From the NCBI GenBank assembly GCA_963829475.1, contig CAWHIU010000003.1, forward strand, positions 17,196 to 81,195: a DNA stretch of 64,000 nucleotides. Direction: 5' to 3'. A program made the translations under genes and the position numbers. The stretch comes from an uncultured Actinomycetes bacterium. GTDB taxonomy: Bacteria > Actinomycetota > Acidimicrobiia > IMCC26256 > JANYLB01. Shown in pieces: positions 1 to 44,884 of this stretch; within the stretch, counting starts at the first letter, position 1, and the number at the start of each line of letters is the position of its first letter. A model generated the notes under the pieces. That model saw only the letters and a list, made by a program, of their open reading frames with translations, had not been told where the DNA came from and did not search any database.

Positions 1-3000
1 TCGTTCATCGGTCCAGGATGCCGCGGACAACGTGGTCGCCGGCTCGACGGCCTACAGCGCGGCAGGACACACCTCGACCTTCACGCCGTCGTCGCCGTTC
101 GCGGCTCAACACCGTGTACACCGCGACGGTCTCGGGTGTGCACGGACACGGCCGGCAACACCCTGGCTGCGCCGTTCTCCTGGTCGTTCACCACCACCGC
201 CACGCCGCCCGACACCACGCCGCCGACCGTCACGTCGACATCGCCGACATCGGGCGCGACCAGCGTCGCGACCGGCACCTCACCGCCAGGCGATCTTCTC
301 GGAGCCGGTGCAGGCGGGCACGATCTCGTTCACGCTGCGCGACGCGAGCAACGCACTCGTCGCCGGTTCGACCACCTACAACTCGAGCACGCAGACGGCG
401 TCGTTCACGCCGTCGACCGCGTTGGCGACCGCCGCGCGTCTACACGGCGACCGTGACCGGTGCGCAAGACACCGCGGGAAATGCGATGACAGTCCCCGAC
501 GACGTGGTCCTTCACCACCACGGCGGCCGCCAGCGGATGCCCCTGCATCATCTGGTCGGCCGGAGCGACGCCCACAGTGGCCGCCGACGGTGACACCGGT
601 GCGGTGGAGTTGGGGGTGAAGTTCCGGTCTGACAGTGATGGTTTCGTGACGGGTGTGCGGTTCTTCAAGGGTTCGACGAACACGGGGACGCACGTCGGGA
701 ACTTGTGGTCGTCGACGGGGACGTTGTTGGCGACGGCGACGTTCTCGGGTGAGTCGGCGTCGGGGTGGCAGCAGGTGACGTTCTCGTCGCCGGTCGCGGT
801 GACGGCGAACACGACGTATGTCGCTTCGTACTTCGCGCCCAACGGCCACTATTCGACGACGAACAGCGGTTTGGCCGCGGCGGTCGACAACGCGCCGCTG
901 CACGCGCTGGCCGGTTCGAGCTCGGGTGGCAACGGCGTCTATCGGTATGGCTCGAGTTCGGCGTTCCCGAACGCGAGCTTCCAGAACACGAACTACTGGG
1001 TCGACCCGGTCTTCACCGACGTTGCCGCCTCCCGACACCACCGCACCGACGGTGACGTCGACGACGCCGAGCTCCGGCGCGACGGGTGTCGCGACGTCGG
1101 CCGCGCCGACCGCGACGTTCAGCGAGGCGGTGCAGTCGGGCACGATCGTCGTTCACCCTGCGCGATGCCTCGAACAATCTCGTTGCCGGCTCGAGCGCCT
1201 ACAACTCGACCACCCACGTCTCGACCTTCAGCCCGACGGTCGCGCTCACCGGTGGGGCCACCTACACGGCGACGGTGTCGGGTGCGTTGGACACGGCCGG
1301 GAACGCGATGGCGGCTCCCACGACCTGGTCGTTCACGACGGCGGCGGGTGTGGGGTCGGGTCCGTTCACGATCTGGTCGGCTGGTGCGACGCCGGGGACT
1401 GCGGCGTCGGGTGATACCGGTGCGGTGGAGTTGGGGGTGAAGTTCCGGTCTGACAGTGATGGTTTCGTGACGGGTGTGCGGTTCTTCAAGGGTTCGACGA
1501 ACACGGGGACGCATGTCGGTTCCTTGTGGTCGTCGGCGGGGACGTTGTTGGCGACGGCGACGTTCTCGGGTGAGTCGGCGTCGGGGTGGCAGCAGGTGAC
1601 GTTCTCGTCGCCGGTGGCGGTGACGGCGAACACGACGTATGTCGTTTCGTACTTCGCGCCGAATGGTCACTACGCGGCCGACAACAATGGTCTTGCGTCG
1701 GCGGTCGACAACGCGCCGCTGCACGCGCTGGCCGGTTCGAGCTCGGGTGGCAACGGCGTCTATCGGTATGGCTCGAGTTCGGCGTTCCCGAACGCGAGTT
1801 TCCAGAACACGAACTACTGGGTGGATCCTGTCTTCACGTCGGCTCCTCCCGCGGCGGACACCACGCCGCCGACGGTGACGTCGACGACTCCGATCTCGGG
1901 TGCGACGGGTGTGTCGACGTCGGCCGCGCCGACCGCGACGTTCAGCGAAGCGGTGCAGGCGGGCACGATCTCGTTCGTGGTCCGCGACGCAGCCAACGCG
2001 GTGGTCGCGGGTTCGACCGTCTACACGGCGGCCACGAACCTGGCGACGTTCACGCCCACCTCGCCGCTCGCGACCTCAGCCACCTACACGGCGACGGTGT
2101 CGGGTGCGTTGGACACGGCCGGGAACGCGATGGCGGCTCCCACGACCTGGTCGTTCACGACGGCGGCGGGTGTGGGGTCGGGTCCGTTCACGATCTGGTC
2201 GGCTGGTGCGACGCCGGGGACTGCGGCGTCGGGTGATACCGGTGCGGTGGAGTTGGGGGTGAAGTTCCGGTCTGACAGTGATGGTTTCGTGACGGGTGTG
2301 CGGTTCTTCAAGGGTTCGACGAACACGGGGACGCATGTCGGTACCTTGTGGTCGTCGGCGGGGACGTTGTTGGCGACGGCGACGTTCTCGGGTGAGTCGG
2401 CGTCGGGGTGGCAGCAGGTGTCGTTCTCGTCGCCGGTGCGCGGTGACGGCGAACACGACGTACGTCGCTTCGTACTTCGCGCCGAATGGTCACTACGCGG
2501 CCGACAACAATGGTCTTGCGTCGGCGGTCGACAACGCGCCGCTGCACGCGCTGGCCGGTTCGAGCTCGGGTGGCAACGGCGTCTATCGGTATGGCTCGAG
2601 TTCGGCGTTCCCGAACGCGAGTTACCAGAACACGAACTACTGGGTCGATCCTGGTCTTCACGTCGGCTCCTCCCGCGGCGGACACCACGCCGCCGACGGT
2701 GACGTCGACGACTCCGATCTCGGGTGCGACGGGTGTGTCGACGTCGGCCGCGCCGACCGCGACGTTCAGCGAAGCGGTGCAGGCGGGCACGATCTCGTTC
2801 GTGGTCCGCGACGCAGCCAACGCGGTGGTCGCGGGTTCGACCGTCTACACGGCGGCCACGAACCTGGCGACGTTCACGCCCACCTCGCCGCTCGCGACCT
2901 CAGCCACCTACACGGCGACGGTGTCGGGTGCGTTGGACACGGCCGGGAACGCGATGGCAGCGCCGATTTCGTGGTCGTTCACAACCGCGGCAGCAGCGTC

Positions 3001-3494
3001 GACCCTCTCGAGCATCTTCTCGAGCAGCGTGACGCCGGTGGTGAGCGCTTCGAGCGACTCGGGTGCCGTCGAGCTCGGCGTGAAGTTCCGTTCCGACGTG
3101 GCCGGTCAGGTCACCGGGGTCCGGTTCTACAAGGGCACAGGCAATACCGGCACGCACGTCGGAAACCTGTGGTCGTCGACGGGCACGCTTGTTGGCGACA
3201 GCGACGTTCTCGGGTGAGTCGGCGTCGGGATGGCAGCAGGTGACGTTCTCGTCGCCGGTGGCCATCGCGGCGAACACCACCTACGTCGTCTCGTACTTCG
3301 CACCCAACGGCCACTATGCAGTCGACAACACGTTCTTCTCCGCCGCCGGTTTCGACAACGGCTCGCTGCACGCGCTGTCGAACGCCGCAGGAAGCGGGAA
3401 CGGCGTCTACCAGTACGGCGCCGCCTCGACCTTCCCGACCGCGAGCTACCAGGCGTCGAACTACTGGGTCGACGTCGTCTTCGCTACCCCGTAG
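1..3494 (+). pseudogene. Large repetitive secreted/surface protein with alternating SbsA/Big_5-type Ig-like and DUF4082 domains. The 5' end lies outside the window and the frame is broken at least 8 times.
   Basis: There are four DUF4082-like modules (GAVELGVKFRSD..GFVTGVRFFKG..NTGTHVG.LWS..G.LLA..TF.GESASGWQQV.FSSPV...NTTYV.SYFAPNGHY...NYWVD). They alternate with Ig-like modules (PPTVTSTTP.SGATGV....PTATFSEAVQ.GTI.F.....N.V.GS..Y......TFTP...L.....YTATVSG..DTAGN.M..P..WSFTT). The correct frame moves between ORFs 32-, 136-, 577-, 818-, 1086-, 2296-, 2486- and 3189-, switching near 1018, 1148, 2440, 2650 and 3190 and several times before 560. It ends at the TAG at 3492-3494. Confidence 0.75.
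577..3042 (+). repeat. Three tandem ~822-bp coding cassettes (DUF4082 + Ig-like). A fourth, diverged DUF4082 copy follows at 3043-3494.
   Basis: The string gcggtggagttgggggtgaagttccgg recurs at 601, 1422 and 2244, giving offsets of 821 and 822 nt. Long stretches such as 1262-1440 and 2084-2262 are essentially identical. Confidence 0.8.
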
Positions 3495-3497
3495 GGC

Positions 3498-4915
3498 TCA
3501 ACTCCGCTCCACGTCCGAGGAGTCTGCGGAGAGATTGCCGCCGTTCTCGTCCGCTTCGTCGGGGCGATCCACCGAAGTCGTCGGGATCTCGAGGGTGACG
3601 AGCGTGCCCCCGCCGTCGGCGCGGGCCGCGGTGGCGCTCCCGCCGTGTTCGTCCAAGGCACCACGGACGATCGACAGGCCGAGGCCGGAACCGGGCATCG
3701 AACGGGCGTCGGGGGCCCGGTAGAAGCGGTCGAACACGTGAGGCAGGTCGGCCGGTGCGATGCCCGGTCCGTGGTCACGGATGGTGATGGATCCGCCGAG
3801 TTGGCGGACCTCGACGACGGCGCCGGCTGGGCTCCATTTGCACGCGTTGTCGAGCACGTTGGCCAGGGCCCGTTCGATCTGGGCTCGACGGACGTGGACG
3901 AGGACCGGTTCCTCCGCGAGCAGGCGGGTCTCGACATCGTGGGCGTGGAGGTTCGCGCGGTCGACGGCCCGCTCGACGAGCTCGTCGAGCCGGAGCGTTG
4001 TCGATTCCTCTTCCTGAGCCGCGGCATCGTCGCGCGCGAGCTCGACGAGGTCGCCGACCAACACGCTGAGCTCCTCCATCTGCGTGGTGACGTCGCCGAG
4101 GAGCCGTTCCCGCTCGTCGGCCGGCATGTCGGACTGCCGTGCGAGCACCTCGATGTTGGTGCGCACACTCGTGAGTGGGGTGCGGAGCTCGTGGCTCGCG
4201 TCGGCGACGAGCTGGCGTTGCTGCTCGCGGGAAGCCGGCCAGCGCGCCGAGCATGGTGTTGAAGCTCGCGGCCAACCGGCCGAGCTCGTCTCGTCGGTCG
4301 ATGTCGATCGACGCGTCGAGATCCTGGGTCTCGGCTACGTGCTCCGCGGCCGCGGTCAGGCGCTCGACTGGTCGCAGCACAACGCGGGCAACGACGAAGC
4401 CGAGCGCACCGGCGAGGGCGATGCCGCCGAGCGCGACGAGGATGAGGGTGATCCGCAGCGACGCCAGCGTGTTGTCGATCTCGGCGAGGGGCCGGGCGAT
4501 CTGGACTGCGGCGCCGGTGAGGGTGGGGATCGTGATCATGCGGAAGTGGTGGCCGCCGGCCGACACACTCCGGATCACGGCCCGGTTGCCGTTGCGGGCG
4601 ATGGCGCGGTCTTCGCGGCCGACCGGGAGCTCGATCGTCTGGTCGGCCGGAGCGCTCACGGTCCCGTCCGCGCCGATGAACTGCACGCAACTGGTCCGTA
4701 CGCGGGACCGGACCGGGGTTGGTCTGTCCGTCGAATGGTGTTCTCGAGCCGAAGTCGGGCCGGTCGGCCATCCGTGTCGCCTGTTCGCGCAACGTGCGGT
4801 CGGACTCGTCGAAGAGGCGGTTGCGCACGGTGACGTACGCGATCCCCGACGCGAGCGCGATCGCGATCGCCACCGCTGTGGCGGCGAGCACCGTGAGACG
4901 GGTCCGCAGGCTCAC
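3498..4915 (-). pseudogene. Sensor histidine kinase (TM-HAMP-HisKA-HATPase), with two frame breaks near 4235 and 4690
   Basis: The N-terminal TM segment is [28 protein letters not shown], read from the 3461-5053 ORF frame. The HAMP region (RPVERLTAAAEHVAETQDLD...ELGRLAASFNTML) comes from ORF 3775-4686. The H-box SHELRTPLTSVRTNIEVL spans the break. The HATPase_c domain (NVLDNACKW...RDHGPGI...FDRFYR...GSGLGLSIV) is in ORF 3498-4166. The GTG start at 4915 overlaps the response-regulator stop as GTGA. Confidence 0.8.
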
Positions 4916-5592
4916 GATCCCTCGCGCAGGACGTAGCCGACGCCCCGGACCGTTTGGATCAGCCGCGGTTCGCCGCCCCCTTCGGTCTTGCGGCGCAGGT
5001 AGCCGATGTACACGTCGAGCGAGTTCGAGCTCGTCTCGAAGTCGTAGCCCCACACCCGTTCGAGGATCAGCTCACGGGTGAGCACCCGGCGGGGGTTGCG
5101 CAGCAGCAGCTCCAGGAGGAGGAACTCGGTCCGGGTCAGCTCGATGTCGCGCTCGGCCCGGCGGACCTCGCGGGTCTCCGGATCGAGGGAGAGGTCGGCG
5201 AACCGCATCGCCGCGCCGTCGTCGTCGAGCGTCCGTCGCAACAGGGCGCGGAGCCGTGCGAGCAGCTCCTGGAGTGCGAAGGGCTTGACGAGGTAGTCGT
5301 CGGCACCCGCGTCGAGCCCGGCGACGCGGTCGGGAACGGTCTCCCGTGCAGTGAGCATCAGGATCGGTACCGGGTCGCCACCGACTCGGAGCCGGCGGCA
5401 GACCTCGAGCCCGTCGACGTTCGGCATCAACACGTCGAGCACGATCGCGTCGCAGGGTTCGAGGGCCTGCGCCTCGAGCGCCTCCTGGCCGTCGGCCGCG
5501 GTCGCGACGGTGTAGCCCTCGTACCGCAGAGCGCGTGCCACCGCGTCGCGCACCGCTTGTTCGTCGTCGACGACCAGCACCTTCACCGTCAC
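4912..5592 (-). CDS. OmpR/PhoB-family response regulator
   Basis: The ORF is an intact 226 aa. It has a receiver domain (VLVVDDE...[14 protein letters not shown]...ILMLTAR..DYLVKPF) and a winged-helix C-terminus ([34 protein letters not shown]...[11 protein letters not shown]). Confidence 0.9.
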
Positions 5593-5640
5593 ATCATCGT
5601 CCGGTGATGTGAGAAACCTGTGAACAACGGGTGGGTTCTC

Positions 5641-6182
5641 TCAACCACGGGTCCGACTCTGGTGGGCGAACCCCATGATGCCGTAGCCGAGCAGCGCGAT
5701 CCCCGGGAGCAGGAACCACCACTTCAACGGGATCCCGACGAGCGTCAGTGCCGTGCCGACCCCGATGCACACCGGCCAGATGCTGGTCTCGGGCAGGTAC
5801 ACCCCTCCGGAGTCGGGGTCGTCGGCGGCCGCGGATCCGGCCGCCTCCCGCTCGCGCTCACCGGTCTCGACGTCGGTCTGCACGGTACGCAGCGAGACCC
5901 AGAAGTAGCCCGCGGTGATGAACGAGAACACTGCCCCGGCGACGAACAGCACCTGACCGCTCACACCGCCGACATCGCCATAGGGATCGAAGATCGCGTA
6001 GACGACGCCCGCGGCGACGAAAGCGAACCCCATCAGCGTGAAGATCAAGGCTTCACCATGGTTCGCTCCGGCTGCGCCCTCATGGTTCGCTCCGGCTGCG
6101 CCCTCATGGTTCGCTCCGGCTGCGGTGCTCGATCGCTCACCCGTTTGGGTTCTCTTGGTCGCGTCCGCACCTTCGCCTTCGC

Positions 6183-6186
<4 letters not shown>
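5641..6186 (-). CDS. ctaF: Cytochrome c oxidase subunit IV, actinobacterial CtaF type, with a repeat-containing N-terminal tail
   Basis: It sits directly downstream of ctaD, with its GTG at 6186-6184 overlapping the ctaD TGA at 6185-6183. The four-TM pattern and the PETSIWP motif are typical of CtaF. The start is inferred from the overlap. Confidence 0.7.
6057..6124. repeat. 24-bp in-frame tandem repeat (about 2.8 copies) inside the ctaF 5' region
   Basis: The unit catggttcgctccggctgcgccct occurs twice in full plus a partial third copy. On the minus strand it encodes (AAGANHEG)n. Confidence 0.85.
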
Positions 6187-7881
<1,695 letters not shown>

Positions 7882-7885
<4 letters not shown>

Positions 7886-8657
7886 GACGCGTTCGCTCCC
7901 GTCGTCGCGGTGTCGGGGATCTCCGGCTGCGCGAGCCCGCGGTGTCGCGGCGAGCCACTGTCGTACTCGGCCACACTCACCGCCCGGAGCGTGAACTTCA
8001 TCTGCCAGTGGTTGAGGCCACAGAACTCGGCGCAGCGCCCGACCCACGTCGCCCGGCTTCTTCACGTACACCTGGATGCGGTTGGTCGACGCCGGGGATG
8101 AGGTCACGCTTCTCGAGGAACTCGGGAACCCAGAACGAGTGGATCACGTCGTCGGCGACGAGGTGGAACTGCACCGTGCGCCCGACCGGCAGCACGAGCT
8201 CGGCGGGGTGGTCGGGCGTTCCCTGGGTCGTGACCCCTTCGCCGGGGTAGTGGAACTGCCACTGCCACTGGAACCCGACGACCTGCACGCGAACGTCGGG
8301 ATCGCGCTTCAGCGTGGTGAGCTCGTCGTTGACCTGGAGGGTCAGCGCGAAGAGCACTCCGACGAGCACGAGCGGGACGACGGTGTAGAAGATCTCGAGC
8401 TTGAGCATGGTCTGTCGCTGACGCGGGACAGCGTCGGAGCGACGCCGGTAGCGGATCACCGACCAGGCGACGAGTCCCCAGATGAGCGCGACGACCGCGA
8501 TCGCGATGACGAAGAAGATCCGCCAGAGCTCGAGGGTCTTCTCACCTTGACTCGTGATCGGGTCGGGGAACCCGAAGTTGGTGTCGCACCCGGTGAGGAA
8601 CGTGGTGACGGCGAGGAGCAGGGCTGCTCGGATGGCGAGCGCGCACGTGCGGGTCAT
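7882..8657 (-). pseudogene. ctaC: Cytochrome c oxidase subunit II (lipoprotein), with frame breaks near 8040-8100
   Basis: The ATG at 8657 begins MTRTCALAIRAALLLAVTTFLTGC, a signal peptide with a lipobox. Further motifs are GFQWQWQFHYP and DVIHSFWVPEF. The CuA site RCAEFCGLNHWQM is read in a shifted frame. The TGA stop is at 7884-7882. Confidence 0.85.
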
Positions 8658-9577
8658 CGCGGCGCGGACGCTACCGGACCCGGGCGGGTCGGGGAGGGTT
8701 GCGCACGTGGTCCCGCGCCGGCGCCGGTCGCGCGCGTCGGCGGCGTCGAGCGCGCGGTCGAGTCGATCGCCTCGCCGTTCCTCGTGGCGCATCCACTGGG
8801 CGAGGACCACGCCACCCGCGGCCAGGCCGACGAGATCGCCCACCACCCACATGATCGCCGCGCCCCGGTGCTGGACCGCGACCAGCGCTCCGGCGGTGAG
8901 TCGGCCCGTGATCGAGGAGCTCCCATCGAGTGGCGTCGTGGTGCTCAGGAGCGCCAGGCCGAGGAAGGCGTGGAGCGGAACCGTGACGATCACGAGCGCG
9001 AGCCGGGCGCCGTACGGGATCCTCCAAGCGACCGGATCGAGGCCCACGGTGACCCAGAAGAAGAGACATCCGACCACGAAGAAGTGGACGTGGACGGCCT
9101 CGTGTATCCACGGCGTGTGGACCGAGAGCCCGTAGAGCGGTGAGAAGTAGAGCACGAACAGGGTGAACGCGAAGAGCGTGCAAGCGACCACGGGGTGACT
9201 GATGATCCGCACGGGCGGGGAGTGCAGGACTCGGAGCAGGCGGATCTGGGTCGAGCGGGTGCTCGCCTGGAGGGCGAGCGTGACCGGCGCGCCGAGCGCG
9301 AGGAGGAACGGCGCGACCATGCCGAGCAGCACGTGCTGGAGCACGTGAACGTCGAACCGGTCGTCGCACGCCGCGATCACCGACTGCGTGGCCACCAACG
9401 CGACCACCAGACCCGCGGCGAACGCAGCCGAGCGTGCGGGCGACCAGTCGCGGCCCCGCGCGCGAAGCGTTGGACACCGATGAGGTAGCCGGCACCGGCG
9501 AGCGCAACGAGCAGCGCGGGTGCGGGCGCGAGTGACCAGCGCGAGAGGAGTTCGGCGGCCGCCGGCACCGGGGGCAC
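8658..9577 (-). pseudogene. Caa3-type cytochrome oxidase assembly factor CtaG-like membrane protein. It has one frame break near 9440 and no stop codon before the ctaC ATG.
   Basis: The reconstructed sequence reads SRWSLAPAPALLVALAGAGYLIGVQRF..(shift)..WSPARSAAFAAGLVVALVATQS...HVLQHVLLGMVAPFLLALGAPVTLAL, followed by several further TM helices. Both the start (GTG at 9577 or 9568) and the 3' end are uncertain. Confidence 0.6.
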
Positions 9578-9635
9578 ACCGGCACCGTAGCCGGGTCTTC
9601 GAGCGGAACGCGGCTGCGGACCCGCGTCGCGCGCA

Positions 9636-10291
9636 ATGCCTGGCCGCGCCGGTCGGCCGGTGCTAGAACCGAGCGCAGTGGACCCGGTTGCCGCGGCCCT
9701 CGACTCGTCACCGGCAGTCGATCGCGCCCTGAACCCAGCCGAACGGCAACGATCGTCGCCACTCGCGGTCGGAGTCGTGGTCTGGCTCGCATCGGAGGTG
9801 ATGTTCTTCGGCGGGCTCTTCGCGGCCTGGTTCGTTCTGAAGGCGCACAACGCGCCGGCGTGGCCGCCCGGCGGCGAGCAGCTCGACGTCGCCCGCACCG
9901 GGGTGTTCACCGCGGTCCTGATCGCGTCGAGCTTCACCATCCACCACTCGGTGACCATGGCCGAAGCCGGGAAGCGGCGGGCCGCGTCACGATGGCTCGC
10001 GTTCACGTGGGTGTTGGGCGCCACCTTCATCGCGGGTGAGATCTGGGAGTACGCGACGCTTCCGTTCCCGTTCGACCGCGACTCGTACAGCTCGATCTTC
10101 TACCTGCTCACCGGGTTCCACGGCGCCCACGTGATCGGCGGCCTCGTGCTGATGGGCGTCGTGGCGTGGGTGGTGTTCACGGCCGAGAGCAAAGCTCCGC
10201 TCGGGCCGTCATGCGGGCGACCAGCTACTACTGGCACTTCGTCGACGTCGTCTGGGTGGTGCTCTTCGCAATCGTCTACGTGATCTCGTGA
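9636..10291 (+). pseudogene. ctaE: Cytochrome c oxidase subunit III, with a frame break near 10205
   Basis: Motifs present are VWLASEVMFFGGLFAAWF and YLLTGFHGAHVIGGLVLM. After the shift the C-terminus reads SYYWHFVDVVWVVLFAIVYVIS. The TGA at 10289-10291 overlaps the qcrC GTG. The true start may be an internal GTG near 9678. Confidence 0.85.
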
Positions 10292-11141
10292 AGCGGCGCG
10301 TGGGCCGACTTCACCTACGGGTGATCGGGCCGGTCGTCGGTCTCGGGATGCTGACGCTGCTCGTCGCGGTCGGGGCGCTCGCGGCCGGGGCCACGGCGCC
10401 GGCCCGTTCGGTCGCGTCGGAACCCACGGCGGTCGACCCCGATCTGGTCGCGCGCGGCAAGGAGCTCTACCTCACGGGCTGCGTCAGCTGCCACGGAGTC
10501 GGTGGTGTCGGCACCGAGAACGGTCCGCCGCTCCTCGTCTCGGGCGAGGCCGCGGCCGACTTCTACCTGCGCACGGGCCGCATGCCGCTGGCCGCTCCCG
10601 GCCAGCAGCCACCTCAGAAGCCGGTGGCCTACGACGACGCGCAGATCCGTGCGCTGGTCGCGTACGTCGGGTCGATCGGCACCGGACCGCCGATCCCGGT
10701 CGTCGATCCGAACCGGGGTGACCTCGACATGGGCGCGGAGCTGTTCCTCGCCAACTGCGCCGCGTGCCACAACTCGGCCGCCATCGGCGGCGCGCTCAGC
10801 CACGGCAACTACGCACCGTCGTTGCAGAACGTCGCGACCGAGCAGATCGCCGAGGCGATGCGGGTCGGTCCCGGTCAGATGCCGCGCTTCGGGCCCGAGG
10901 TCTTCGACCAGCACCAGCTCAACTCGATCGTGCGGTACGTCAAGTACCTGCACGAGCCCGATGATCCCGGTGGCCTCGATCTCGGGTACACGGGACCGGT
11001 ACCGGAGGGCTTCGTCGCGTTCCTGTTCGGCCTCGGTGCCCTCATCGTCGCGGCGCGTGGATCACCCGTGAGAAGCACGACCAAACCCCGGCCGGGCCCG
11101 GCGCCGTCGGCCCCGAGAAGGAGACGGCCGACCGTGGCTGA
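10288..11141 (+). pseudogene. qcrC: Cytochrome bc1 (bcc) complex dihaem cytochrome c subunit, with a frame break near 11055
   Basis: There are two CxxCH motifs (CVSCH and CAACH). A C-terminal TM anchor is restored after a 1-nt shift (..ALIVAA.WITREKHD..ADRG*). The TGA stop is at 11139-11141. Confidence 0.85.
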
Positions 11142-12081
11142 CGAACCGATCGCCGCCGCCCGACCGGCGACTCCCCCGGCGACCACGGCCCCGACGACCA
11201 CGGCTCCGACGACGGGCGCCGCCGAGGTGGCGAGCTCGTGCCCGCGCTCTTTCTGGTGGCCGCGATCCTCGCCGGTATCGCCTTGATGGTCGTGTACGCA
11301 CTCGGAGGCCAGACCCAGATCGAGGGCGTGCTCCTGTTCGTCGCGCTCGGCGGCATCGGCGCGGGGATGGTGTCGTGGGCGAAGCGGTTCATGACCACCG
11401 CGCCCGAGACCGAACCTCGCCCGCGGCTCGGCTCGACCGACGAGGAGATCGACGCGTTCTCGGACGACTTCGACCAGGGCGAGTACGAGCTCGAACGACG
11501 GACCTTGCTCACCAAGCTGCTCCTGGGCGCGCTCGGCGCCCTGGGTCTCGCGGCGTTGTTCCCGATCGCGTCGCTCGGTCCACCGGCGCGGAAGAGCTTC
11601 CGGACGTCGCCCTACAAGAAGGGCATGCGGCTCGTCACCGAGAACGGCGAGCCGGTGCGCGCCGACAGCGTGAACGTGAACGGCGTGATCACCGTCTTCC
11701 CCGAGCACGACGTGGACGACGAGTTCGCGCAGGTCGTGCTGATCGGTCTCGATCCCCAACGCGAGTTCACGCCGCGAGCCGGACGGGAAGACTGGACGCC
11801 GCACGACCTCGTCGCCTTCTCGAAGGTCTGCACCCACGCCGGCTGTCCGGTCGGCCTGTACGAGGCAGAACTTCGGCGAGCTGCTCTGCCCGTGCCACCA
11901 GTCGACGTTCGACGTGTACGACGCCGCCCGGCCCGTCTTCGGCCCGGCCGCGACCTCCCTTCCGCAGCTCCCGCTCGCCATCGACGCCGACGGCTACGTG
12001 ATCGCCGCCGGCGAGCTCTCGGGCCCGCCGGGACCGTCCTTCTGGAACCAGCAGTACCTGTGGAAGGAAGACAACCAGTGA
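11134..12081 (+). pseudogene. qcrA: Cytochrome bc1 complex Rieske 2Fe-2S subunit, with frame breaks near 11225 and 11870
   Basis: The GTG at 11134 overlaps the end of qcrC. TM helices are present, with Rieske box 1 CTHAGCPVG and, after a shift, box 2 CPCHQSTFD. The stop is at 12079-12081. Confidence 0.85.
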
Positions 12082-13452
12082 CCGACGCGCCGGTCGAGCG
12101 GACCGAGATGCGCAATCGCGCCGGTCGGCTCGGGCGCTGGATCGACGCCCGCATCGGCCTGGCGCGCGTCGGCCGCACTGCGCTGCAGAAGATCTTCCCG
12201 AACCACTGGTCGTTCCTGCTCGGCGAGGTCGCGCTCTACTCGTTCCTGGTGCTGCTCCTCACCGGCATCTACCTCACGTTCTTCTACGACCGAACACCGA
12301 CGTCGGTCACGTACCACGGCAGCTACGTCCCGCTGCAGGGCGTCGAGATGTCGAAGGCGTACCGCTCGTCGCTCGACCTGAGCTTCGACGTGAAGGCCGG
12401 CCTCGTGGTGCGCCAGATCCACCACTGGGCGGCGCTGATCTTCCTCGGCGCCATCGTCGTGCACCTCTGCCGGGTGTTCTTCACCGGCGCGTTCCGCCGA
12501 CCGCGCGAGCTCAACTGGGTCGTCGGCTGCACGCTGTTGCTGCTCGGCGTCCTCAACGGCTTCGCCGGCTACTCGCTGCTCGACGACCAGCTCTCGGGCA
12601 CCGGCCTGCGCATCGGCTACTCGGTGCTGATCTCCGTGCCGTTCGTCGGACCGTGGCTCGCGCTCGCTGGTGTTCGGCGGGCAACTTCCCCGGCGACCGA
12701 CATCATCCCGCGGCTGTTCGTCGTGCACATCCTGATCGTGCCGCTGGCGATCATCGGCGCTCATCACGGTGCACCTGGCGATCCTGATCGAGCACAAGCA
12801 CACCCACTTCCCCGGCCGCGGCGCCCGCGACGACAACGTCGTCGGCGAGCGCCTCTGGCCGACCTACACGTTCAAGGCCGCCGGCCTCTTCTTCCTGGTC
12901 GCGGCGGTCGATCGCGCTGCTCGGCGGCGATCGCGCAGATCAACCCGGTCTGGCTCTACGGCCCGTTTCGACCCGAGAACGTGATCGTCGGCGTCGCAGC
13001 CCGACTGGTACATGGGCTGGCTCGAAGGCGCGCTGCGGCTCATGCCGAACTGGGAGACGCGCATCGGTGGCTTCACCATCCCCAACCCGTTCTACGCCGG
13101 CGTGCTCCCGGCTGGTCTCGCGTTCACGGTGTTGTACGTGTGGCCCTGGATCGAAGCCCGCCTCACCAAGGACCACCGTGAGCACCACGTGCTCGATCGA
13201 CCGCGTGACCGCCCGGTGCGCACCGCGGTCGGTGTCGCGGCACTGTGCTTGTTCACCGTGCTGGGTCTCGCCGGGTCGAACGACGTGATCGCGGTGTCGT
13301 TCGGCCTGTCGGTGAACTTCCTCACCTACGCGTTCCGAGTGCTGCTGTTCGTCGCGCCGATCGTCGGCTTCCTGGTGACCTACAAGTTGTGCAAGGAGCT
13401 ACAGGATCGGGATCCGCCGGTGGTCGACCCGTATCTCGCCGAGACCGACTGA
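12078..13452 (+). pseudogene. qcrB: Cytochrome bc1 complex cytochrome b subunit, with several frame breaks between 12650 and 13010
   Basis: The GTG at 12078 overlaps the qcrA stop as GTGA. Motifs present are FPNHWSFLLGEVALYSF, VRQIHHWAALIFLGAIVVHL and GYSLLDDQLSGTGL. After shifts the sequence continues INPVWLYGPF and DWYMGWLEGALRLMP, ending KELQDRDPP..ETD*. Confidence 0.9.
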
Positions 13453-13459
13453 CTCGGAG

Positions 13460-13930
13460 TCAACCGCGTACCGCTTCGCAGGCCGGAGCGTGCGCGAACT
13501 CGCGCTCGAGCACCCCTCCGGGGGTGAGGTTCCGGATGCCGTCGACGGACGCGCGCACCTGTTGGACGAGTGTCGGTGTGGGGAGCTGGTCGGCGCGGGT
13601 GCGGATGCTCTCGACGAGCCGTTCGACCTCACCCTGGGCCGCGTTGCCATCGTCGGTTTTCGGGGGCTGGAGCTCTTCGACCGCGTTCAGGAGTCGCCTC
13701 GACGCCTCGGCAACCGCCGTTCCACCGCTCGCACCGGCACCGACGGTGTCGAGCCAACGACCGAGATCGGTGCAGACCGCGTTGACCCACTGGGTGCCGG
13801 AATGCTCGACATCCGGTGACTCCTGGCCACCGGTGCAGCCTCCGATCGGAGCGATGGCCAGGAGTGCGGCGGCCGCGAGCACGGCCACGGCGCGGCCCGG
13901 GAGATCGGCGACCGTCAGAGCTCCCCGCAT
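13460..13930 (-). CDS. Hypothetical lipoprotein
   Basis: The ORF is an intact 156 aa. It has a signal peptide with a lipobox (AVLAAAALLAIAPIGGC). I recognise no family. Confidence 0.5.
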   Translation of the reverse strand: MRGALTVADLPGRAVAVLAAAALLAIAPIGGCTGGQESPDVEHSGTQWVNAVCTDLGRWLDTVGAGASGGTAVAEASRRLLNAVEELQPPKTDDGNAAQGEVERLVESIRTRADQLPTPTLVQQVRASVDGIRNLTPGGVLEREFAHAPACEAVRG

Positions 13931-21770: not shown

Positions 21771-23629
<1,859 letters not shown>

Positions 23630-24386
23630 CCGTCGACGTCGTAGCCGAGGTCTTCCCAGTATCCGGGGTGTACCTGCTTCGTCAGCTTCGATCCCGTCGA
23701 GCCACTTGATCGACTTGTAGCCGTACATCGGCGCGACGTAGAGACGTACCGGCCCGCCGTGCGCGGAGGAGATGTCGTCACCCTCGAGTTGGTACGCCAC
23801 GATCACGTCGGATCGTCGGGCCTGCTCGAGCGTGAGGCTCTCGGTGTAGGTGCCGTCGAAGCTCGTGAACCGCAGCGCGGTTGCCCCGTCCTGCACCCCG
23901 GCGCGGTCGAGCAGGTCGGAGAGCAGGACGCCCTTCCACTCGACGTCGGTGACGCGCCACCCGGTGACGCACTGGAAGTCTTTGTCGAGATGCGTCGGCG
24001 GGAGCGCGATCAGCTCGTCGTAGGTCAGGCGGTACGGCGTGTCGACGAGGCCGTGCACGGTGAGCGTGTAGCGCGGCTTGCTACCGGCTCGGAAGGTCGC
24101 CGGTGACGGTGTAGATCCGGAACCGACCGATCGGGAGGAGCGCGGAGAGGCCGGTGCCGTCCTTCGAGATGAGCGGGCCGAGGGTACGTTCGAGGGCGTC
24201 TTGGACCTTGGCGCCGAACACGACACCGAGCGCGCCCACCCCGAGGAGTCCGAGGAACAGGCGACGCCCGACCGGGGTACCGCGGACCGGTTCCTCGCGC
24301 TCGGGAGGTCGGCCCTCGGGAGGTCGGCCCTGTGGAGGTCCGCCCTCGGGAGCTCCGTTCGTGACGACCTCGGCTGGTTCGTCCAT

Positions 24387-24991
24387 GTGTCAAGGGTACG
24401 GCGCAGGAGGGGTTCGGGATTGGCCGCCCTGCTCACGATCTCCGAAACCTCGTGGAGGCCCGGCTCAATGATCCCCGCCGCGCCGATGGCCCGGGTGGGA
24501 TCGACGGTTTCGATCGGGTTGCCGCTCGCGAGGGAATCCGCCACCGCGTGGATCGCCTCATGGCCGCGTTTCGACCCGATGACACCCCAGCTGCATTCTC
24601 GGCTCCCGCTGCGGGCGGTGATCCGCCAGGGTCGTCGGAAGAGGACGCGACAGGCGATCGCCACGATCGCGGCGATCGTGGCCCCGACGACGATCCCGAC
24701 GATGATCAGGGTGTCGAACCGGGGGGTCAGGACGGGCACCACCACGACGACACAGACGATCACCGCGACGGCCACGACACCGATGGTGACGAGCCAGACC
24801 GCCCACCCGTCTTCGGGGACGGCCACGTGGGCGAGACCGTCGAGCCACTCGATCTGCGAGTCCGCCGGATCGGTGCTCGCTCGGTGTCGTTGGAACACGG
24901 TCCACGGCCAACGCCGAGGGCGGTGCAGCCAGTGACGGCGGATCGTCCATTCCTGCCCGTCGGGCGCGGTGACGCGACGCTCGTCGGGCAT
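24387..24991 (-). CDS. Hypothetical membrane protein with an undefined 3' end
   Basis: The ATG at 24991 begins MPDERRVTAPDGQEWTIRRHW. Two TM helices follow (WAVWLVTIGVVAVAVIVCVVVVV and IIVGIVVGATIAAIVAIA). The frame has no stop until 23195 and runs into the next gene, so the real end is unknown. Confidence 0.35.
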
Positions 24992-33724: not shown

Positions 33725-33795
33725 TCGGGGGTGGTGTAACGGCAGCACGGGGTCCTTTGGAGTCCCAAGTCGAGGTTCGAAACCTCGCCCCCGAG
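33725..33795 (+). tRNA. tRNA-Gln (anticodon TTG)
   Basis: A hand-folded cloverleaf gives acceptor TCGGGGG/CCCCCGA, a D arm, the anticodon loop CTTTGGA, and the T arm CGAGG-TTCGAAA-CCTCG. There is one T-T mismatch in the anticodon stem. Its position upstream of glmU matches other actinobacteria. Confidence 0.8.
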
Positions 33796-33854
33796 CTGGC
33801 GGGACCCGCTGATCTGCAGGGAAGACGGAGAGGTTCGTCGATGACGGGGTACCG

Positions 33855-35333
33855 GTGACCGGATATCGACCGTTGGCGGCCGTGGTGCTCGCCGCGGGTG
33901 AAGGCACGCGGATGCGGTCGACCACTCCCAAGGTCCTGCATCTCCTGTGCGGACGGCCGATGCTGCTGCACGTCGTCGACACCCTGGTCGCGCTGCCCCT
34001 CGAGCGGGTGGTCGTCGTGGTCGGTCACGGTGCCGAACGCGTCACCAAGACGCTCCACGAGCAGGTCGCGACGGAGCTTCCGATCGAGTTCGTGGAGCAA
34101 CGGGTGCAACGCGGAACCGGCGACGCCGCGAGCGTCGCACTCACCGCGTTCGCCGACGACCCCGACACCGACGGCGACATCATCGTGATGCCCGGCGATG
34201 CTCCGCTCGTGCGCCCCGAGGTGCTGGCCCGCCTCGCGACGGAGCACCGCGAGAGCGACGCCGCCGCGACGGTGCTCACCGCCGCGCTCGACGAGACAAC
34301 AGTCGACTTCGGTCGTGTGCTGCGCGACGACAAGGGCCGCCTCGACCGGGTCGTCGAGAAGAGCGACGCGTCGGAGGAGGAGTTGCTGATCGACGAGGTG
34401 AACACGTCGATCTACTGCTTCCGGCGCGGGCTGCTCGCGCCCGCGCTGCGCCGACTGAGCCCCGAGAACGCGCAGGGCGAGTACTACCTGACCGATGTGC
34501 TCGAGGTGCTGCGCCAGACCGGCCACACGGTCGTGGCGGTGCCCGCCAATGATCCGACCGCGGCGTTGCACGTGAACAACCGGGCTCAGCTCGCGGCGGC
34601 CGAAGCGGTGCTGCGCGAGCGCATCAACGACCGCTGGATGCGCGAAGGCGTCGGGATGGTCGATCCGTCATCGACGTACGTCGACGCGTCGGTGGAGCTC
34701 GAGCCCGACGTGCGGCTGTTGCCCGGAACGATCCTCGAGGGAAGGACGGTGATCGGCGCGGGTTCCGTGGTCGGTCCCGACTGCCGGCTCGTCGACACCA
34801 TCGTCGGTGAGCGCGCCATCATCCAGAACGCAGTGGCGCGAGACACCGAGATCGGTGACGACTGCACCGTCGGTCCCTACGTGTCGTTGCGGCCGGGCAC
34901 GCGCCTGGCCGCGGGCGCGCACGTCGGCACGTTCGTCGAGACCAAGAACGCCGAGATCGGTGAAGGCGCGAAGGTGCCCCACCTGTCGTACATGGGCGAC
35001 GTCGAGATCGGAGACCGGGCGAACGTCGGCGCGGGATCGATCACGGCGAACTACGACGGCCGCAACAAGCACCGCACGAAGATCGGCTCCGACGCGCGGA
35101 TCGCCTCGAACACGGTGTTCGTCGCTCCGGTCGAGATCGGCGACGGCGCCCACACCGGCGCCGGCGCGGTCGTCAACCGTGACGTCCCGCCGGGTGCGAT
35201 GGCCAAGGGTGTTCCGGCCCGGATCGACGAAGGGTGGGGCGAGCGCCGTGCGGCCGAAGCGGGTCGCGATCACGGCCGCGACGAAGGTGCTCGGGAAGAA
35301 GATGGTCAGGAAGCCGACGACCTCGAGACCTGA
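33855..35333 (+). CDS. glmU: Bifunctional UDP-N-acetylglucosamine diphosphorylase / glucosamine-1-phosphate N-acetyltransferase
   Basis: The ORF is an intact 492 aa. It has AVVLAAGEGTRMRS, YYLTD and C-terminal left-handed beta-helix hexapeptide repeats. Confidence 0.95.
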   Translation: MTGYRPLAAVVLAAGEGTRMRSTTPKVLHLLCGRPMLLHVVDTLVALPLERVVVVVGHGAERVTKTLHEQVATELPIEFVEQRVQRGTGDAASVALTAFADDPDTDGDIIVMPGDAPLVRPEVLARLATEHRESDAAATVLTAALDETTVDFGRVLRDDKGRLDRVVEKSDASEEELLIDEVNTSIYCFRRGLLAPALRRLSPENAQGEYYLTDVLEVLRQTGHTVVAVPANDPTAALHVNNRAQLAAAEAVLRERINDRWMREGVGMVDPSSTYVDASVELEPDVRLLPGTILEGRTVIGAGSVVGPDCRLVDTIVGERAIIQNAVARDTEIGDDCTVGPYVSLRPGTRLAAGAHVGTFVETKNAEIGEGAKVPHLSYMGDVEIGDRANVGAGSITANYDGRNKHRTKIGSDARIASNTVFVAPVEIGDGAHTGAGAVVNRDVPPGAMAKGVPARIDEGWGERRAAEAGRDHGRDEGAREEDGQEADDLET

Positions 35334-35360
35334 TCGTCCGACGCGTGCCAGGATGGCCCC

Positions 35361-36335
35361 ATGGAGTTGGTGCCCAAGAAGCGGTTGATGCTCTTCGCCG
35401 GGAGCGGCCATCGGTCGCTGTCGGAGGAGATCGCCCAGAGCCTCGACGTGCCGCTCTCGTCGGTCACGCTGTCGAACTTCGCCAACGGCGAGCTCTACTG
35501 CCGCTACGACGAGAACCTGCGCGGCGCCGACGTGTTCGTGCTCCAGACGCACTGTGAGCCGATCAACGACCGCATCTTCGAGCAGTTGATCATGATCGAC
35601 GCGGCGAAGCGCGCGTCGGCCAAGCGGATCACCGCCGTGTGTCCCTTCTACGGCTATGCCCGTCAGGACCGCAAGGCCGCGGGCCGTGAGCCGATCACCG
35701 CACGACTGCTCGCCGATCTGCTCACGGTCGCGGGCGCGGATCGGGTCGTGACCGTCGACCTGCACACCGGCCAGATCCAGGGGTTCTTCGACTTCCCCGT
35801 CGATCACCTCACCGCGGTGCCGCTGCTCGCCGACTACGTGGCCAACCGGGTCGACGGCGAGGTCACGGTGGTCGCACCCGACGCGGGTGGCGGCAAGCTC
35901 GCCCGCCGGTTCGCGAACTGCCTCGACGTCGAGGCCGAGCTCGCGTTCGTCGACAAGAGCCGGCCGAAGGGCACCCACAACATCGCGGTGGCGAACGATG
36001 TGGTCGGTGTGATCGAAGGGCGCCACTGCGTGCTCGTCGACGACATGATCGACACTGCCGGGTCGATCACCGCAGGCGCGGAGCTCTTGATGGATCGGGG
36101 CGCCGAGTCGGTGATCATCGCGGCCACGCACGGCCTGCTCTCGGGCCCTGCCGTCGACCGGCTCAAGAACGCCCGGGTGCGAGAGGTCGTGGTCACGAAC
36201 ACCCTGCCGATCTCCGACGACAAGCGCTTCGACAACCTCACTGTCCTCTCGATCGCCCCGATCGTGGCCGAGGTTCTCGGTGCCGTGTTCGGCGACAAGT
36301 CCGTCAGCGAGCTCTTCCGCGGCGACAACCTCTGA
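35361..36335 (+). CDS. prs: Ribose-phosphate diphosphokinase
   Basis: The ORF is an intact 324 aa. Motifs present are FANGE, YGYARQDRK, VTVDLH and VLVDDMIDTAGS. Confidence 0.95.
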   Translation: MELVPKKRLMLFAGSGHRSLSEEIAQSLDVPLSSVTLSNFANGELYCRYDENLRGADVFVLQTHCEPINDRIFEQLIMIDAAKRASAKRITAVCPFYGYARQDRKAAGREPITARLLADLLTVAGADRVVTVDLHTGQIQGFFDFPVDHLTAVPLLADYVANRVDGEVTVVAPDAGGGKLARRFANCLDVEAELAFVDKSRPKGTHNIAVANDVVGVIEGRHCVLVDDMIDTAGSITAGAELLMDRGAESVIIAATHGLLSGPAVDRLKNARVREVVVTNTLPISDDKRFDNLTVLSIAPIVAEVLGAVFGDKSVSELFRGDNL

Positions 36336-36437
36336 CGTCCTGTCTGGTCGGCTCCGCTGTGTCGGCTCGATCGCTCACCCGTTGCCGTTCTGCGGTTACT
36401 TTCCGCCGACTCCGCTTCGCCTCCTAGGCTGCTCGCC

Positions 36438-37200
36438 GTGACCGAGGAGACGAGCGCCAAGTCGGGCCGCAAGTGGAGCGCGCTGCGGAAGTTCTACGAG
36501 ACCGCGGCCGATGGCGACGCGGGGGAGTTCCCCCGCTACGAGCTCCAACTCGAGCAGCTCCGGAGTCTCGCCGGTCAGCTCCCCCCCGCGCCGCGTTTTC
36601 TCGATCTCGGCTGCGCGTCGGGTGCATGGTCGGCTCGAGTTGCGTCGACGCTCGGCGCGTCGTCGGTGGTCGGCGTCGACCTGTCGACGAAGGCGTTGCG
36701 CGTCGCGACGGAGCGCGGGATCCAGGCGGTGTTCGCGTCGGTCGACGGCGGCGTGCTGCCGTTCCGCACCGGGTCGCTCGACATCGTGATGCTCGACGAG
36801 GTGATCGAGCACGTGGTCGACACCGACGGCATCGTCGACGAGATCTACCGGGTCCTGCACCCCGACGGTGTGCTCATCCTCTCGACGCCCAACCTCGCGG
36901 CGTGGTTCAACCGGATCGGTCTGCTCGCCGGTCTCCAGCCGGCCTTCACCGAGGTGGCCTACTCGGGGGTCTACGGCCGGCCCGGCGACGAGGTCGTCGG
37001 TCACCTCCGGCTGTTCACCTGGCGGGCGCTGCGGGAGTTCCTCGCCGCCCACGACTTCGAGATCGTCTCCGTCAAGGGGGCGCCGTTCCACGGCCTTCCC
37101 CGCGCTCGTGCACGGCCTCGATCGCCTCGCGACCCGGTCACCGTCGGTCGCGGCCGACCTGCTCGTGGTCGCCCGGCCCGGGGGCCTGCGTTCGCCCTGA
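36438..37200 (+). pseudogene. Class I SAM-dependent methyltransferase, with one frame break near 37100
   Basis: It has the motif I sequence FLDLGCASGAWS and DIVMLDEVIEHV. After the shift the tail reads ALVHGLDRLATRSPSVAADLLVVARP. Confidence 0.7.
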
Positions 37201-37268
37201 GGCACCCGGCGTGGCAGAATCTGACGTTCCCGATCCTCCCCTTCTGATCCTGAGGACGTTCTCGCGAC

Positions 37269-37934: not shown

Positions 37935-37937
37935 CCC

Positions 37938-38733: not shown

Positions 38734-42137
<3,404 letters not shown>

Positions 42138-42141
<4 letters not shown>

Positions 42142-44730: not shown

Positions 44731-44884
44731 CGGCCCGCCGCCTGACCCCGGCCGCTGGACAGCATCGCTGCGATTCCCCGGCCGGAACGAGGCACGCGGC
44801 TAAGTTCGTCACTCCAACAACACCAGCACCATCCGAACCAGAACTGGCACCACCGTCCCCCGGCCCCCGACCTCGCGAGCTGCC

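What the first reader, a model, noticed from the sequence alone, without database searches (positions are those of the whole stretch)
1..3494. Giant surface protein assembled from near-identical 822-bp [Ig-like + DUF4082] cassettes
At least four DUF4082 modules alternate with SbsA/Big_5-like Ig modules.
- The modules lie at about 577-1015, 1400-1840, 2222-2660 and 3040-3491.
- Cassettes 2 and 3 are almost identical at nucleotide level over hundreds of bases, for example 1262-1440 versus 2084-2262.
- Cassette 1 is slightly diverged and cassette 4 clearly diverged. This pattern suggests recent expansion by unequal recombination.
- Differences between young copies fall on a few codons (THVG-N/S/T-LWSS-T/A-G; HYSTTNSGLAAA versus HYAADNNGLASA).

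DUF4082 has no established function. The gene continues upstream of the window, and copy number is exactly the kind of feature an assembler collapses.
Basis: partly seen in the sequence, partly recalled or inferred. Interest (0 to 1): 0.55.

Follow-up and report, generated by a model that had tools for sequence, protein, structure and literature searches.

The report
Repeat-rich DUF4082 secreted protein, error-broken frame
This is the tail end of an ordinary, widespread but uncharacterised secreted bacterial protein built from repeated Ig-like and DUF4082 modules, and its reading frame looks broken here only because the whole sequence window carries stray single-base insertions.

Summary
The repeats and domains are real. 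Window 1-3494 (+) encodes five Big_5 Ig-like modules and four DUF4082 modules, and 1257-2129 versus 2079-2953 is 99.3% identical.

It is not one open frame.

The same lesions occur across the window:
- ctaD has 18, cytB 7, and enolase at least 6.
- serC and mfd are also hit.
- About 40 of 49 events in the first 13.4 kb are +1 insertions, with no nonsense codons in the target.

I therefore read the breaks as sequence or assembly errors, not as a pseudogene.

An intact, syntenic ortholog (P0001, 2014 aa, 77% identity) gives the full design:
- signal peptide, DMFA2_C (amidase-like), Big_7, then alternating DUF4082 and Big_5 modules, ending in DUF4082;
- the same module count as the window.

More than 6,900 homologs exist, usually with 3-5 DUF4082 copies. 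Internal cassettes resemble each other (93-97%) more than their positional orthologs (82-88%), which indicates concerted evolution.

DUF4082 models confidently (pLDDT 94) as a PHR-like beta-sandwich, probably a binding module. I found no surface anchor. This is a new member of a known, uncharacterised family, of low interest.

The parts
1..198 (+). Big_5 Ig-like module B0, partial. Its N-terminal part lies upstream of the window. It is the first of two back-to-back Big_5 modules. Coding runs in frame 2, then 3, then 1.
   Evidence: Translations, tblastn with the cassette, five Big_5 stretches in Pfam, and alignment to P0001 from residue 858.
211..519 (+). Big_5 Ig-like module B1, interrupted by +1 insertions at about 286, 437 and 492.
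565..1002 (+). DUF4082 module D1 in frame 1. It starts with the GCPCIIWS motif.
   Evidence: Pfam DUF4082 and the identity matrix.
1034..1340 (+). Big_5 module B2, with a +1 insertion at about 1148.
1386..1823 (+). DUF4082 module D2, intact in frame 3.
   Evidence: Pfam on window:1149-1970 places DUF4082 at aa 80-225, 194 bits. AF2 model has pLDDT 94.
1857..2162 (+). Big_5 module B3, intact in frame 3.
   Evidence: Pfam on window:1833-2438 places Big_5 at aa 9-110. Foldseek matches CopC, Ldt Ig domains and SbsC.
2208..2646 (+). DUF4082 module D3, 97% aa identical to D2, with a +1 insertion at about 2439.
2681..2986 (+). Big_5 module B4. Its first roughly 270 nt are identical to B3. A +1 insertion at about 2650 lies just upstream.
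   Evidence: (family D3, 100% over 300 nt).
3029..3494 (+). Terminal DUF4082 module D4 with a +1 insertion at about 3188, followed by the last codons and the TAG stop at 3492-3494. It is the positional ortholog of P0001 D5 (85% identity).
1257..2953 (+). Young tandem duplication of 2.06 periods of about 822 nt. 1257-2129 versus 2079-2953 differ by 6 substitutions (4 non-synonymous, 2 synonymous) and two 1-nt insertions in the second copy.
3461..5053 (-). Convergent neighbour: a HAMP-HisKA-HATPase sensor kinase whose 3' end overlaps the target's 3' end by 34 nt, as in the ortholog locus. It carries two +1 insertions. Shown as context and as a control for the frameshifts.

Best explanation
Window 1-3494 holds the last 1,157 or so codons of a gene of about 2,000 codons. 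The gene belongs to a very common family of secreted multidomain proteins in soil bacteria.

The full design is seen in the intact, syntenic ortholog. It has a Sec signal peptide, a DMFA2_C (dimethylformamidase/acylase-like) domain and Big_7. Then come DUF4082, Big_5, Big_5, three [DUF4082-Big_5] cassettes and a final DUF4082 at the C-terminus.

The gene is most likely intact in the organism. The ten frame changes are single-base insertions introduced by sequencing or assembly, because the same kind of lesion is scattered through housekeeping genes across the window.

The internal 822-nt [Big_5 + DUF4082] cassettes are kept near-identical by unequal crossing-over or gene conversion (concerted evolution). 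Cassette number varies between relatives.

Mechanism (inferred, not shown):
- Each DUF4082 is a PHR-like beta-sandwich that acts as a binding module, probably for an extracellular polymer or glycan.
- Rigid Ig-like Big_5 spacers hold the DUF4082 modules apart.
- The array gives multivalent attachment that positions the N-terminal amidase-like domain on its substrate.
For: Domains:
- Pfam gives DUF4082 x4 and Big_5 x5.

Ortholog and synteny:
- P0001 (2014 aa, 77% identity, 100% coverage) is an uninterrupted ORF on a 1.33-Mb contig.
- It has the same downstream genes as the window: HK, RR, ctaF, ctaD, ctaC, ctaG, then ctaE and qcrCAB.
- P0001 starts with a signal-peptide-like N-terminus, DMFA2_C (E 1.1e-97) and Big_7.

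Frameshifts are technical:
- Frameshift-aware protein-DNA alignment gives 10 events in the target, all +1, and 49 in the first 13.4 kb, about 40 of them +1. These include ctaD 18, cytB 7 and ctaC 6.
- COX1 profile pieces lie in all three frames.
- Enolase is split into at least 6 pieces across the three frames.
- mfd is split, and serC pieces are visible in three frames.
- The stitched translation of the target has no stop codon, and GC3 stays at 0.85-0.95 in the coding frame.
- Frameshift density in the target (1 per 349 nt) is not higher than in its neighbours (1 per 254 nt or so).

Concerted evolution:
- The identity matrix, the mosaic DNA identity, and P0020 with fewer cassettes.

Family size and shape:
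- More than 6,977 proteins at E<=1e-10, and at least 517 genome loci from Actinomycetes, Acidobacteriota, Planctomycetes, Proteobacteria and Cyanobacteria.
- Among 120 homologs, 3-5 DUF4082 copies are typical and 73 end in DUF4082.

Fold:
- AF2 models have pLDDT 94.
- The best PDB matches of DUF4082 are PHR domains 3gbw and 3no8 (TM 0.56-0.59, E about 1e-4). Next come a mycobacteriophage central-fibre domain and the Cwp84 lectin-like domain.
- Big_5 matches CopC, Ldt and SbsC Ig domains.
- Pfam PHR also scores 50.9 bits on the stitched protein.
- The N-terminal domain is distantly related to N-acetyl-beta-phenylalanine acylase 8huy (E 5.6e-4).
Against: - No reads are available, so the technical origin of the insertions is inferred, not shown.
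- Their density is patchy. The glmU-prs-L25-pth block at 33.8-38.5 kb is clean. A decaying genome could also produce this pattern.
- The source contig could not be found.
- The N-terminal part of this particular gene is outside the window, so its presence is inferred from the ortholog.
- The binding function of DUF4082 rests only on fold resemblance at moderate TM-scores (0.56-0.59). No ligand and no experimental work exists for the family.
Confidence: 0.8

Rival explanations
1. The gene is a genuine pseudogene in a genome undergoing decay. The ten frameshifts are real mutations and the protein is no longer made.
For: - Ten frameshifts in 3.5 kb.
- Frameshift density across the window is patchy, and some core genes (glmU, prs, L25, pth) are intact. 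Selective decay could produce that pattern.
Against: - Enolase, ctaD, ctaC, qcrB, serC and mfd are broken in the same way. Loss of enolase plus the whole respiratory chain is implausible for a 68% GC actinomycete-like genome.
- About 40 of 49 events are +1 insertions. Bacterial pseudogenes are expected to show a deletion bias and lesions of mixed size (established knowledge).
- There are no nonsense codons in 1,157 codons.
- Codon bias and in-frame identity to the ortholog are preserved.
Confidence: 0.07
2. The tandem array is mis-assembled. The true copy number of the 822-nt cassette differs from what is shown, either collapsed or artificially expanded.
For: - Two copies are 99.3% identical over 873 nt.
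- The assembly is visibly error-prone.
Against: - The intact ortholog P0001 has exactly the same number and order of modules.
- The near-identical copies still differ by 6 substitutions and are flanked by clearly diverged cassettes that anchor them.
- An 0.8-kb repeat is easily spanned by long reads (inference).
Confidence: 0.1
3. It is a wall- or S-layer-anchored adhesin (a 'giant surface protein'). The repeats form a stalk that projects a binding tip.
For: - Big_5 is the SbsA/SbsC-type Ig domain.
- The ortholog has a signal peptide.
- Repeats with varying copy number are typical of adhesins (established knowledge).
Against: - No LPXTG, SLH or other anchor is present in the window, in the ortholog or in 120 homologs.
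- The C-terminus is a DUF4082 with only 2-3 residues after it.
- The N-terminus of relatives is an enzyme-like DMFA2_C domain.
Confidence: 0.15

Closest known systems
'DUF4082 domain-containing protein' of Actinomycetes. Examples: Pseudarthrobacter phenanthrenivorans Asphe3_39520 (P0071), Arthrobacter spp. 1838-aa proteins, Cellulomonas fimi (P0022), and the intact MAG ortholog P0001.
   Same: - Same Pfam domains (DUF4082, Big_5) and the same alternation of modules.
- Same C-terminal ending in DUF4082.
- 44-77% identity over most of the query.
- P0001 is syntenic with the window.
   Different: - Here only the C-terminal 58% or so of the protein is inside the window.
- The frame is interrupted by ten extra bases.
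- Cassette number differs between relatives: 3-5 DUF4082 is typical, and this gene and P0001 would have 5.
PHR domains of MYCBP2/Phr1 (PDB 3gbw, 3hwj) and BTBD2 (3no8).
   Same: - They are the best structural matches to the DUF4082 model (TM 0.56-0.59, E about 1e-4).
- The Pfam PHR model also scores on the DUF4082 region.
- All are all-beta sandwiches of about 150 residues.
   Different: - PHR domains are eukaryotic and intracellular, and act in protein-protein contacts.
- Sequence identity is only 14-16%.
- DUF4082 has its own conserved motifs (RFYK, NTGTH, SGWQ, NYWVD).
SbsA/SbsC S-layer Ig-like domains, CopC, and the Ig domains of L,D-transpeptidases (the Big_5 fold).
   Same: Big_5 modules match these folds with target-normalised TM up to 0.86, and match the Pfam Big_5 model.
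   Different: - No S-layer anchoring domain is present.
- There is no evidence of CopC-type copper binding. The 'CopC' labels given by JGI to homologs look like spill-over from the shared fold.
N,N-dimethylformamidase large subunit and N-acetyl-(R)-beta-phenylalanine acylase (8huy). This concerns the N-terminal domain of full-length relatives only.
   Same: The P0001 N-terminus matches Pfam DMFA2_C at E 1.1e-97 and matches 8huy weakly (E 5.6e-4).
   Different: - This domain lies outside the window.
- Catalytic residues were not checked.
- Those enzymes are cytoplasmic, whereas this family carries a signal peptide.
Tandem-repeat surface proteins with concerted evolution, such as staphylococcal SasG/Aap and streptococcal Rib/alpha-C (from general knowledge).
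   Same: - Near-identical in-frame DNA repeats of hundreds of bases.
- Copy number varies between strains.
- Repeats are homogenised by recombination.
   Different: - Those proteins are sortase-anchored and their repeats are different folds.
- Here no anchor is present and an enzyme-like head is.

Membership tests
Pfam PF13313 DUF4082 | Match to the family HMM above the gathering score (28.4 bits). | tested here: met
   717 bits with four stretches on the stitched protein, and 194 bits on the single-frame cassette 1149-1970.
Pfam PF13313 DUF4082 | Family-wide conserved residues (R-F-Y-K, N-T-G-T-H, S-G-W-Q, N-Y-W-V-D). | tested here: met
   These residues are invariant or nearly invariant in a 34-sequence alignment that includes the window copy.
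Pfam PF13205 Big_5 (SbsA-type bacterial Ig-like domain) | HMM match above 23.6 bits and an Ig-like beta-sandwich fold. | tested here: met
   292 bits with five stretches. The AF2 model matches CopC, Ldt and SbsC Ig domains with TMt up to 0.86.
Secreted DMFA2_C-Big_7-(DUF4082/Big_5)n architecture class | N-terminal signal peptide, DMFA2_C and Big_7. | not testable with these tools
   This part lies upstream of the window, and the source contig was not found. It is present in the syntenic ortholog P0001.
Secreted DMFA2_C-Big_7-(DUF4082/Big_5)n architecture class | Alternating DUF4082 and Big_5 modules with a C-terminal DUF4082. | tested here: met
   73 of 120 homologs end the same way.
PHR-domain fold | Structural superposition on solved PHR domains. 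| tested here: inconclusive
   PHR domains are the top Foldseek hits (3gbw, 3no8), but TM is only 0.56-0.59 and rmsd 5.8-7.7 A. The Pfam PHR model scores 50.9 bits in total, with no single stretch passing.
Sortase-anchored (LPXTG) or SLH-anchored surface proteins | A C-terminal LPXTG sorting signal or SLH domains. | tested here: not met
   No LPxT[GAN] motif in the stitched protein or in 120 homologs. No SLH domain in the Pfam output. The stop codon follows the last DUF4082 by 3 codons.
Bacterial pseudogene | Disabling lesions specific to the gene, of mixed type (nonsense, deletions, insertions), with relaxed constraint. | tested here: not met
   The only lesions are +1 insertions and there are no nonsense codons. 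The same lesions occur in enolase, ctaD, qcrB and others. Codon bias is intact.

The most novel reading that the evidence does not exclude
DUF4082 may be a previously unrecognised bacterial lectin-like (PHR-fold) binding module. On this reading, the fast-evolving, copy-number-variable [Big_5-DUF4082] array tunes how strongly and how specifically a secreted DMFase-like amidohydrolase binds an environmental or cell-wall polymer. The few non-synonymous differences between the young copies (for example THVG-N/S/T-LWSS-T/A-G) would mark the ligand-contacting surface.
Probability: 0.25. Interest if true: 0.4.

Novelty: new member of a known kind. Interest (0 to 1): 0.17.

Why it matters
- Practical lesson: every open-reading-frame argument made on this window has to allow for frequent spurious +1 insertions. 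This gene should not be reported as a pseudogene or as several small genes.
- Biology: the locus adds one more example of a very abundant but unstudied family of secreted proteins in soil bacteria. It gives a clean illustration of concerted evolution of 822-nt cassettes.
- New lead: the confident PHR-like model for DUF4082 gives a starting hypothesis (a binding module) for a domain that has no assigned function.

Tried and rejected
- A crude GC-by-codon-position hidden Markov model failed even on the target. I replaced it with a codon-usage Viterbi and then with a homology-based frameshift-aware alignment.
- NCBIfam gave no hit for a cassette.
- Tandem Repeats Finder missed the array because its maximum period is 500 nt.
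- An exact look-up of the window's prs product and an exact 34-mer scan of JGI metagenome contigs did not find the source contig. The upstream part of the gene could therefore not be read.
- The genome-contig scan found only relatives of 69% identity or less.
- Sequence searches of the PDB with one cassette and with a DUF4082 profile found nothing meaningful. The WD-repeat designer proteins at E about 0.2-0.6 are noise.
- I considered and rejected programmed frameshifting. Ten events in one gene, with the same lesions in unrelated genes, do not fit it.
- I considered and rejected the idea that the target's repeats attract more errors than their surroundings. The density is 1 per 349 nt in the target against about 1 per 254 nt in the neighbouring 9.9 kb.
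Full report
**What is in the sequence**

The window is 68% G+C. Region 1-3494 contains direct repeats with start-to-start spacings of 821-824 nt. These include a 300-nt stretch that is 100% identical (1830-2129 = 2654-2953) and an 89-nt stretch that is 100% identical (1257-1345 = 2079-2167).

I aligned the four units: U1 326-1148, U2 1149-1970, U3 1971-2794 and U4 2795-3494.
- U2 and U3 are 94% identical overall. They are essentially identical from column 121 onward.
- U3 and U4 are identical in the first 120 columns.
- U1 is about 83% identical to U2 and U3.
- U4 is about 60-66% identical to the others.

The young duplication is 1257-2129 versus 2079-2953. The two copies differ by 6 substitutions (4 non-synonymous, 2 synonymous) and two 1-nt insertions in the second copy.

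**The frame is broken**

No single frame is open across the region. The GC3 signal, tblastn with the intact cassette, and peptide stitching all show the same path:
- frame 2: 2-103
- frame 3: 105-140
- frame 1: 142-285
- frame 2: 290-436
- frame 3: 438-497
- frame 1: 499-1029
- frame 2: 1028-1147
- frame 3: 1149-2438
- frame 1: 2440-2652
- frame 2: 2654-3190
- frame 3: 3189-3491, followed by a TAG stop at 3492-3494

I aligned the intact ortholog protein to the DNA with a method that allows frameshifts. It places ten events at about 104, 144, 286, 437, 492, 1027, 1148, 2439, 2650 and 3188. Every one is a +1 insertion. The stitched 1,161-residue translation has no stop codon.

**Domains**

Pfam on the stitched protein gives:
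- DUF4082 with four stretches (E 5.6e-219)
- Big_5 with five stretches (E 2.9e-88)
- a weaker overlapping PHR signal (50.9 bits)

The cassette that is intact in one frame gives DUF4082 at 194 bits and Big_5 at 64 bits on its own.

**Are the frameshifts biology or artefact?**

They are not special to this gene.
- A codon-usage Viterbi path shows same-strand frame hops every few hundred bases over much of the 64 kb.
- COX1 profile pieces lie in all three frames, and mfd is split.
- Enolase is split into at least six pieces that step through the frames in the +1 direction.
- serC pieces are visible in three frames.
- Using the intact proteins of a syntenic relative as guides, I count 49 frameshifts in the first 13.4 kb. 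About 40 of them are +1 insertions. By gene: ctaD 18, qcrB 7, ctaC 6, target 10, sensor kinase 2.

The target's density (1 per 349 nt) is not above that of its neighbours (about 1 per 254 nt).

Four points argue for technical single-base insertions and against genome decay:
- The events show an insertion bias.
- All lesions are a single base, with no nonsense codons in the target.
- Codon bias is preserved.
- Enolase and the whole respiratory chain are broken.

The patchiness remains unexplained and is the main caveat. The glmU-prs-L25-pth block at 33.8-38.5 kb is clean.

**Relatives**

A protein search found 6,977 homologs at E<=1e-10 among the 8,000 candidates that were scored.

The best is P0001: 2014 aa, 77% identity, full query coverage, on a 1.33-Mb metagenome contig. 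Its gene is one uninterrupted ORF. Its neighbours are the same as in the window: a convergent sensor kinase overlapping by 34 nt, a response regulator, ctaF, ctaD, ctaC, ctaG, then ctaE and qcrCAB. All of them are intact there.

P0001 has this design:
- a signal-peptide-like N-terminus
- DMFA2_C at aa 94-508 (E 1.1e-97)
- Big_7 at aa 555-629
- DUF4082, Big_5, Big_5, three [DUF4082-Big_5] cassettes, and a terminal DUF4082

The window aligns to P0001 residues 858-2013. It therefore holds the same modules in the same order, and about 857 codons lie upstream of the window.

P0020 (1478 aa, 70% identity) has two fewer cassettes. Among the 120 listed homologs, 3, 4 or 5 DUF4082 copies are the rule (36, 55 and 23 proteins). 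73 of them end in DUF4082, and none has an LPXTG-like tail.

A genome scan found at least 517 loci in Actinomycetes, Acidimicrobiia, Acidobacteriota, Planctomycetes, Proteobacteria, Cyanobacteria and others. The source genome itself is not among the species representatives. Sources name these proteins 'DUF4082 domain-containing protein' or 'hypothetical'. The occasional 'CopC' label reflects the shared Ig-like fold.

**Concerted evolution**

- The window's internal DUF4082 modules D1-D3 are 93-97% identical to each other.
- They are only 82-88% identical to P0001's internal modules D2-D4.
- P0001's own D3 and D4 are 93% identical to each other.
- The terminal modules are positional orthologs (window D4 versus P0001 D5, 85%).

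Adjacent cassettes are thus homogenised within each lineage, and cassettes are gained or lost.

**Fold and likely function**

AlphaFold2 models of DUF4082+Big_5 and of DUF4082 alone are confident (pLDDT 94; pTM 0.75 and 0.90).

- Big_5 superposes on CopC, on the Ig domains of L,D-transpeptidases, and on SbsC S-layer domains.
- DUF4082 is an all-beta sandwich. Its best solved matches are the PHR domains of MYCBP2 and BTBD2 (TM 0.56-0.59, E about 1e-4). Next come a mycobacteriophage central-fibre domain, a phage baseplate protein and the lectin-like domain of Cwp84. CBM6 matches are only marginal.
- No solved structure is detectable by sequence.
- Literature on DUF4082 is limited to a listing in a secretome study and one other mention.
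- The N-terminal domain of relatives is distantly related to an N-acyl-amino-acid acylase of the dimethylformamidase family.

I therefore infer a secreted enzyme-like head followed by a multivalent array of binding modules held apart by Ig spacers. This is an inference from architecture and fold. Nothing in it was tested experimentally.

**Verdict**

The breaks are best explained as sequence errors that affect the whole window. The protein is an ordinary member of a large, annotated but uncharacterised family, and no surface anchor was found. Novelty is low. The useful outcomes are the quality warning for this window, a clean example of cassette homogenisation, and a PHR-like fold assignment for DUF4082.

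Noticed in passing
window 3500-13500, and patchily to 64000: Single-base, mostly +1, insertions break many conserved genes: ctaD (18 events), qcrB (7), ctaC (6), the sensor kinase (2), and one or two events each in ctaG, ctaE, qcrA and the response regulator. In total there are 49 events in the first 13.4 kb. ORF-based annotation of this window will fragment genes.
   Followed up: yes
window 44880-46450 (+): Enolase (eno) is split into at least six pieces across all three frames. The Enolase_N and Enolase_C profile segments step through the frames in the +1 direction. The DivIC/FtsB-like gene that follows looks intact.
   Followed up: partly
window 38734-42141 (+): The transcription-repair coupling factor mfd is read in frame 1, then frame 2 (about 39447-39817), then frame 1 again. 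That makes two frame changes in 3.4 kb, far fewer than in ctaD.
   Followed up: partly
window 33820-38540 (+): The glmU, prs, methyltransferase-like ORF, ribosomal protein L25/Ctc and pth block appears free of frameshifts over 4.7 kb, in contrast to its surroundings. The unevenness of the error density is unexplained. Possible causes are variation in coverage or polishing.
   Followed up: no
window 21813-24983 (-): This region has about 13 frame hops. It contains pieces of phosphoserine aminotransferase (serC) in three frames, plus a molybdopterin oxidoreductase-like and a cytochrome b561-like gene. I read this from translations only and did not scan it against Pfam.
   Followed up: no
window 6057-6124: A perfect 24-nt tandem repeat of 2.8 copies (CATGGTTCGCTCCGGCTGCGCCCT). 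On the minus strand it encodes EGAAGANH repeats inside the N-terminal part of the cytochrome oxidase subunit IV gene. The window copy is about 6 codons longer than the ortholog.
   Followed up: no
window 57031-57116 (+): ARAGORN calls a tRNA-Leu(UAA) here, but it does not reach Rfam's tRNA gathering score, unlike tRNA-Gln at 33725-33796. It may also carry an indel error.
   Followed up: no
window 3461-3494, and L001 16012-16045: The 3' ends of the DUF4082 gene and of the convergent sensor-kinase gene overlap by 34 nt. The overlap is conserved in the ortholog locus.
   Followed up: partly
window 535-560, versus 1356-1380 and 2178-2202: DUF4082 module D1 begins with the family-typical Cys-Pro-Cys motif (GCPCIIWS). 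The young copies D2 and D3 have GPFTIWS instead, and D4 has LSSIFS. The P0001 ortholog shows the same pattern by position. The role of the CPC motif is unknown.
   Followed up: no
L001 3094-9117: The ortholog locus carries a second 2007-aa secreted multidomain protein (GSDH, PKD, Laminin_G_3, Big_7) and a NosD/beta-helix protein just upstream of the DUF4082 gene. The corresponding region lies outside the window.
   Followed up: no
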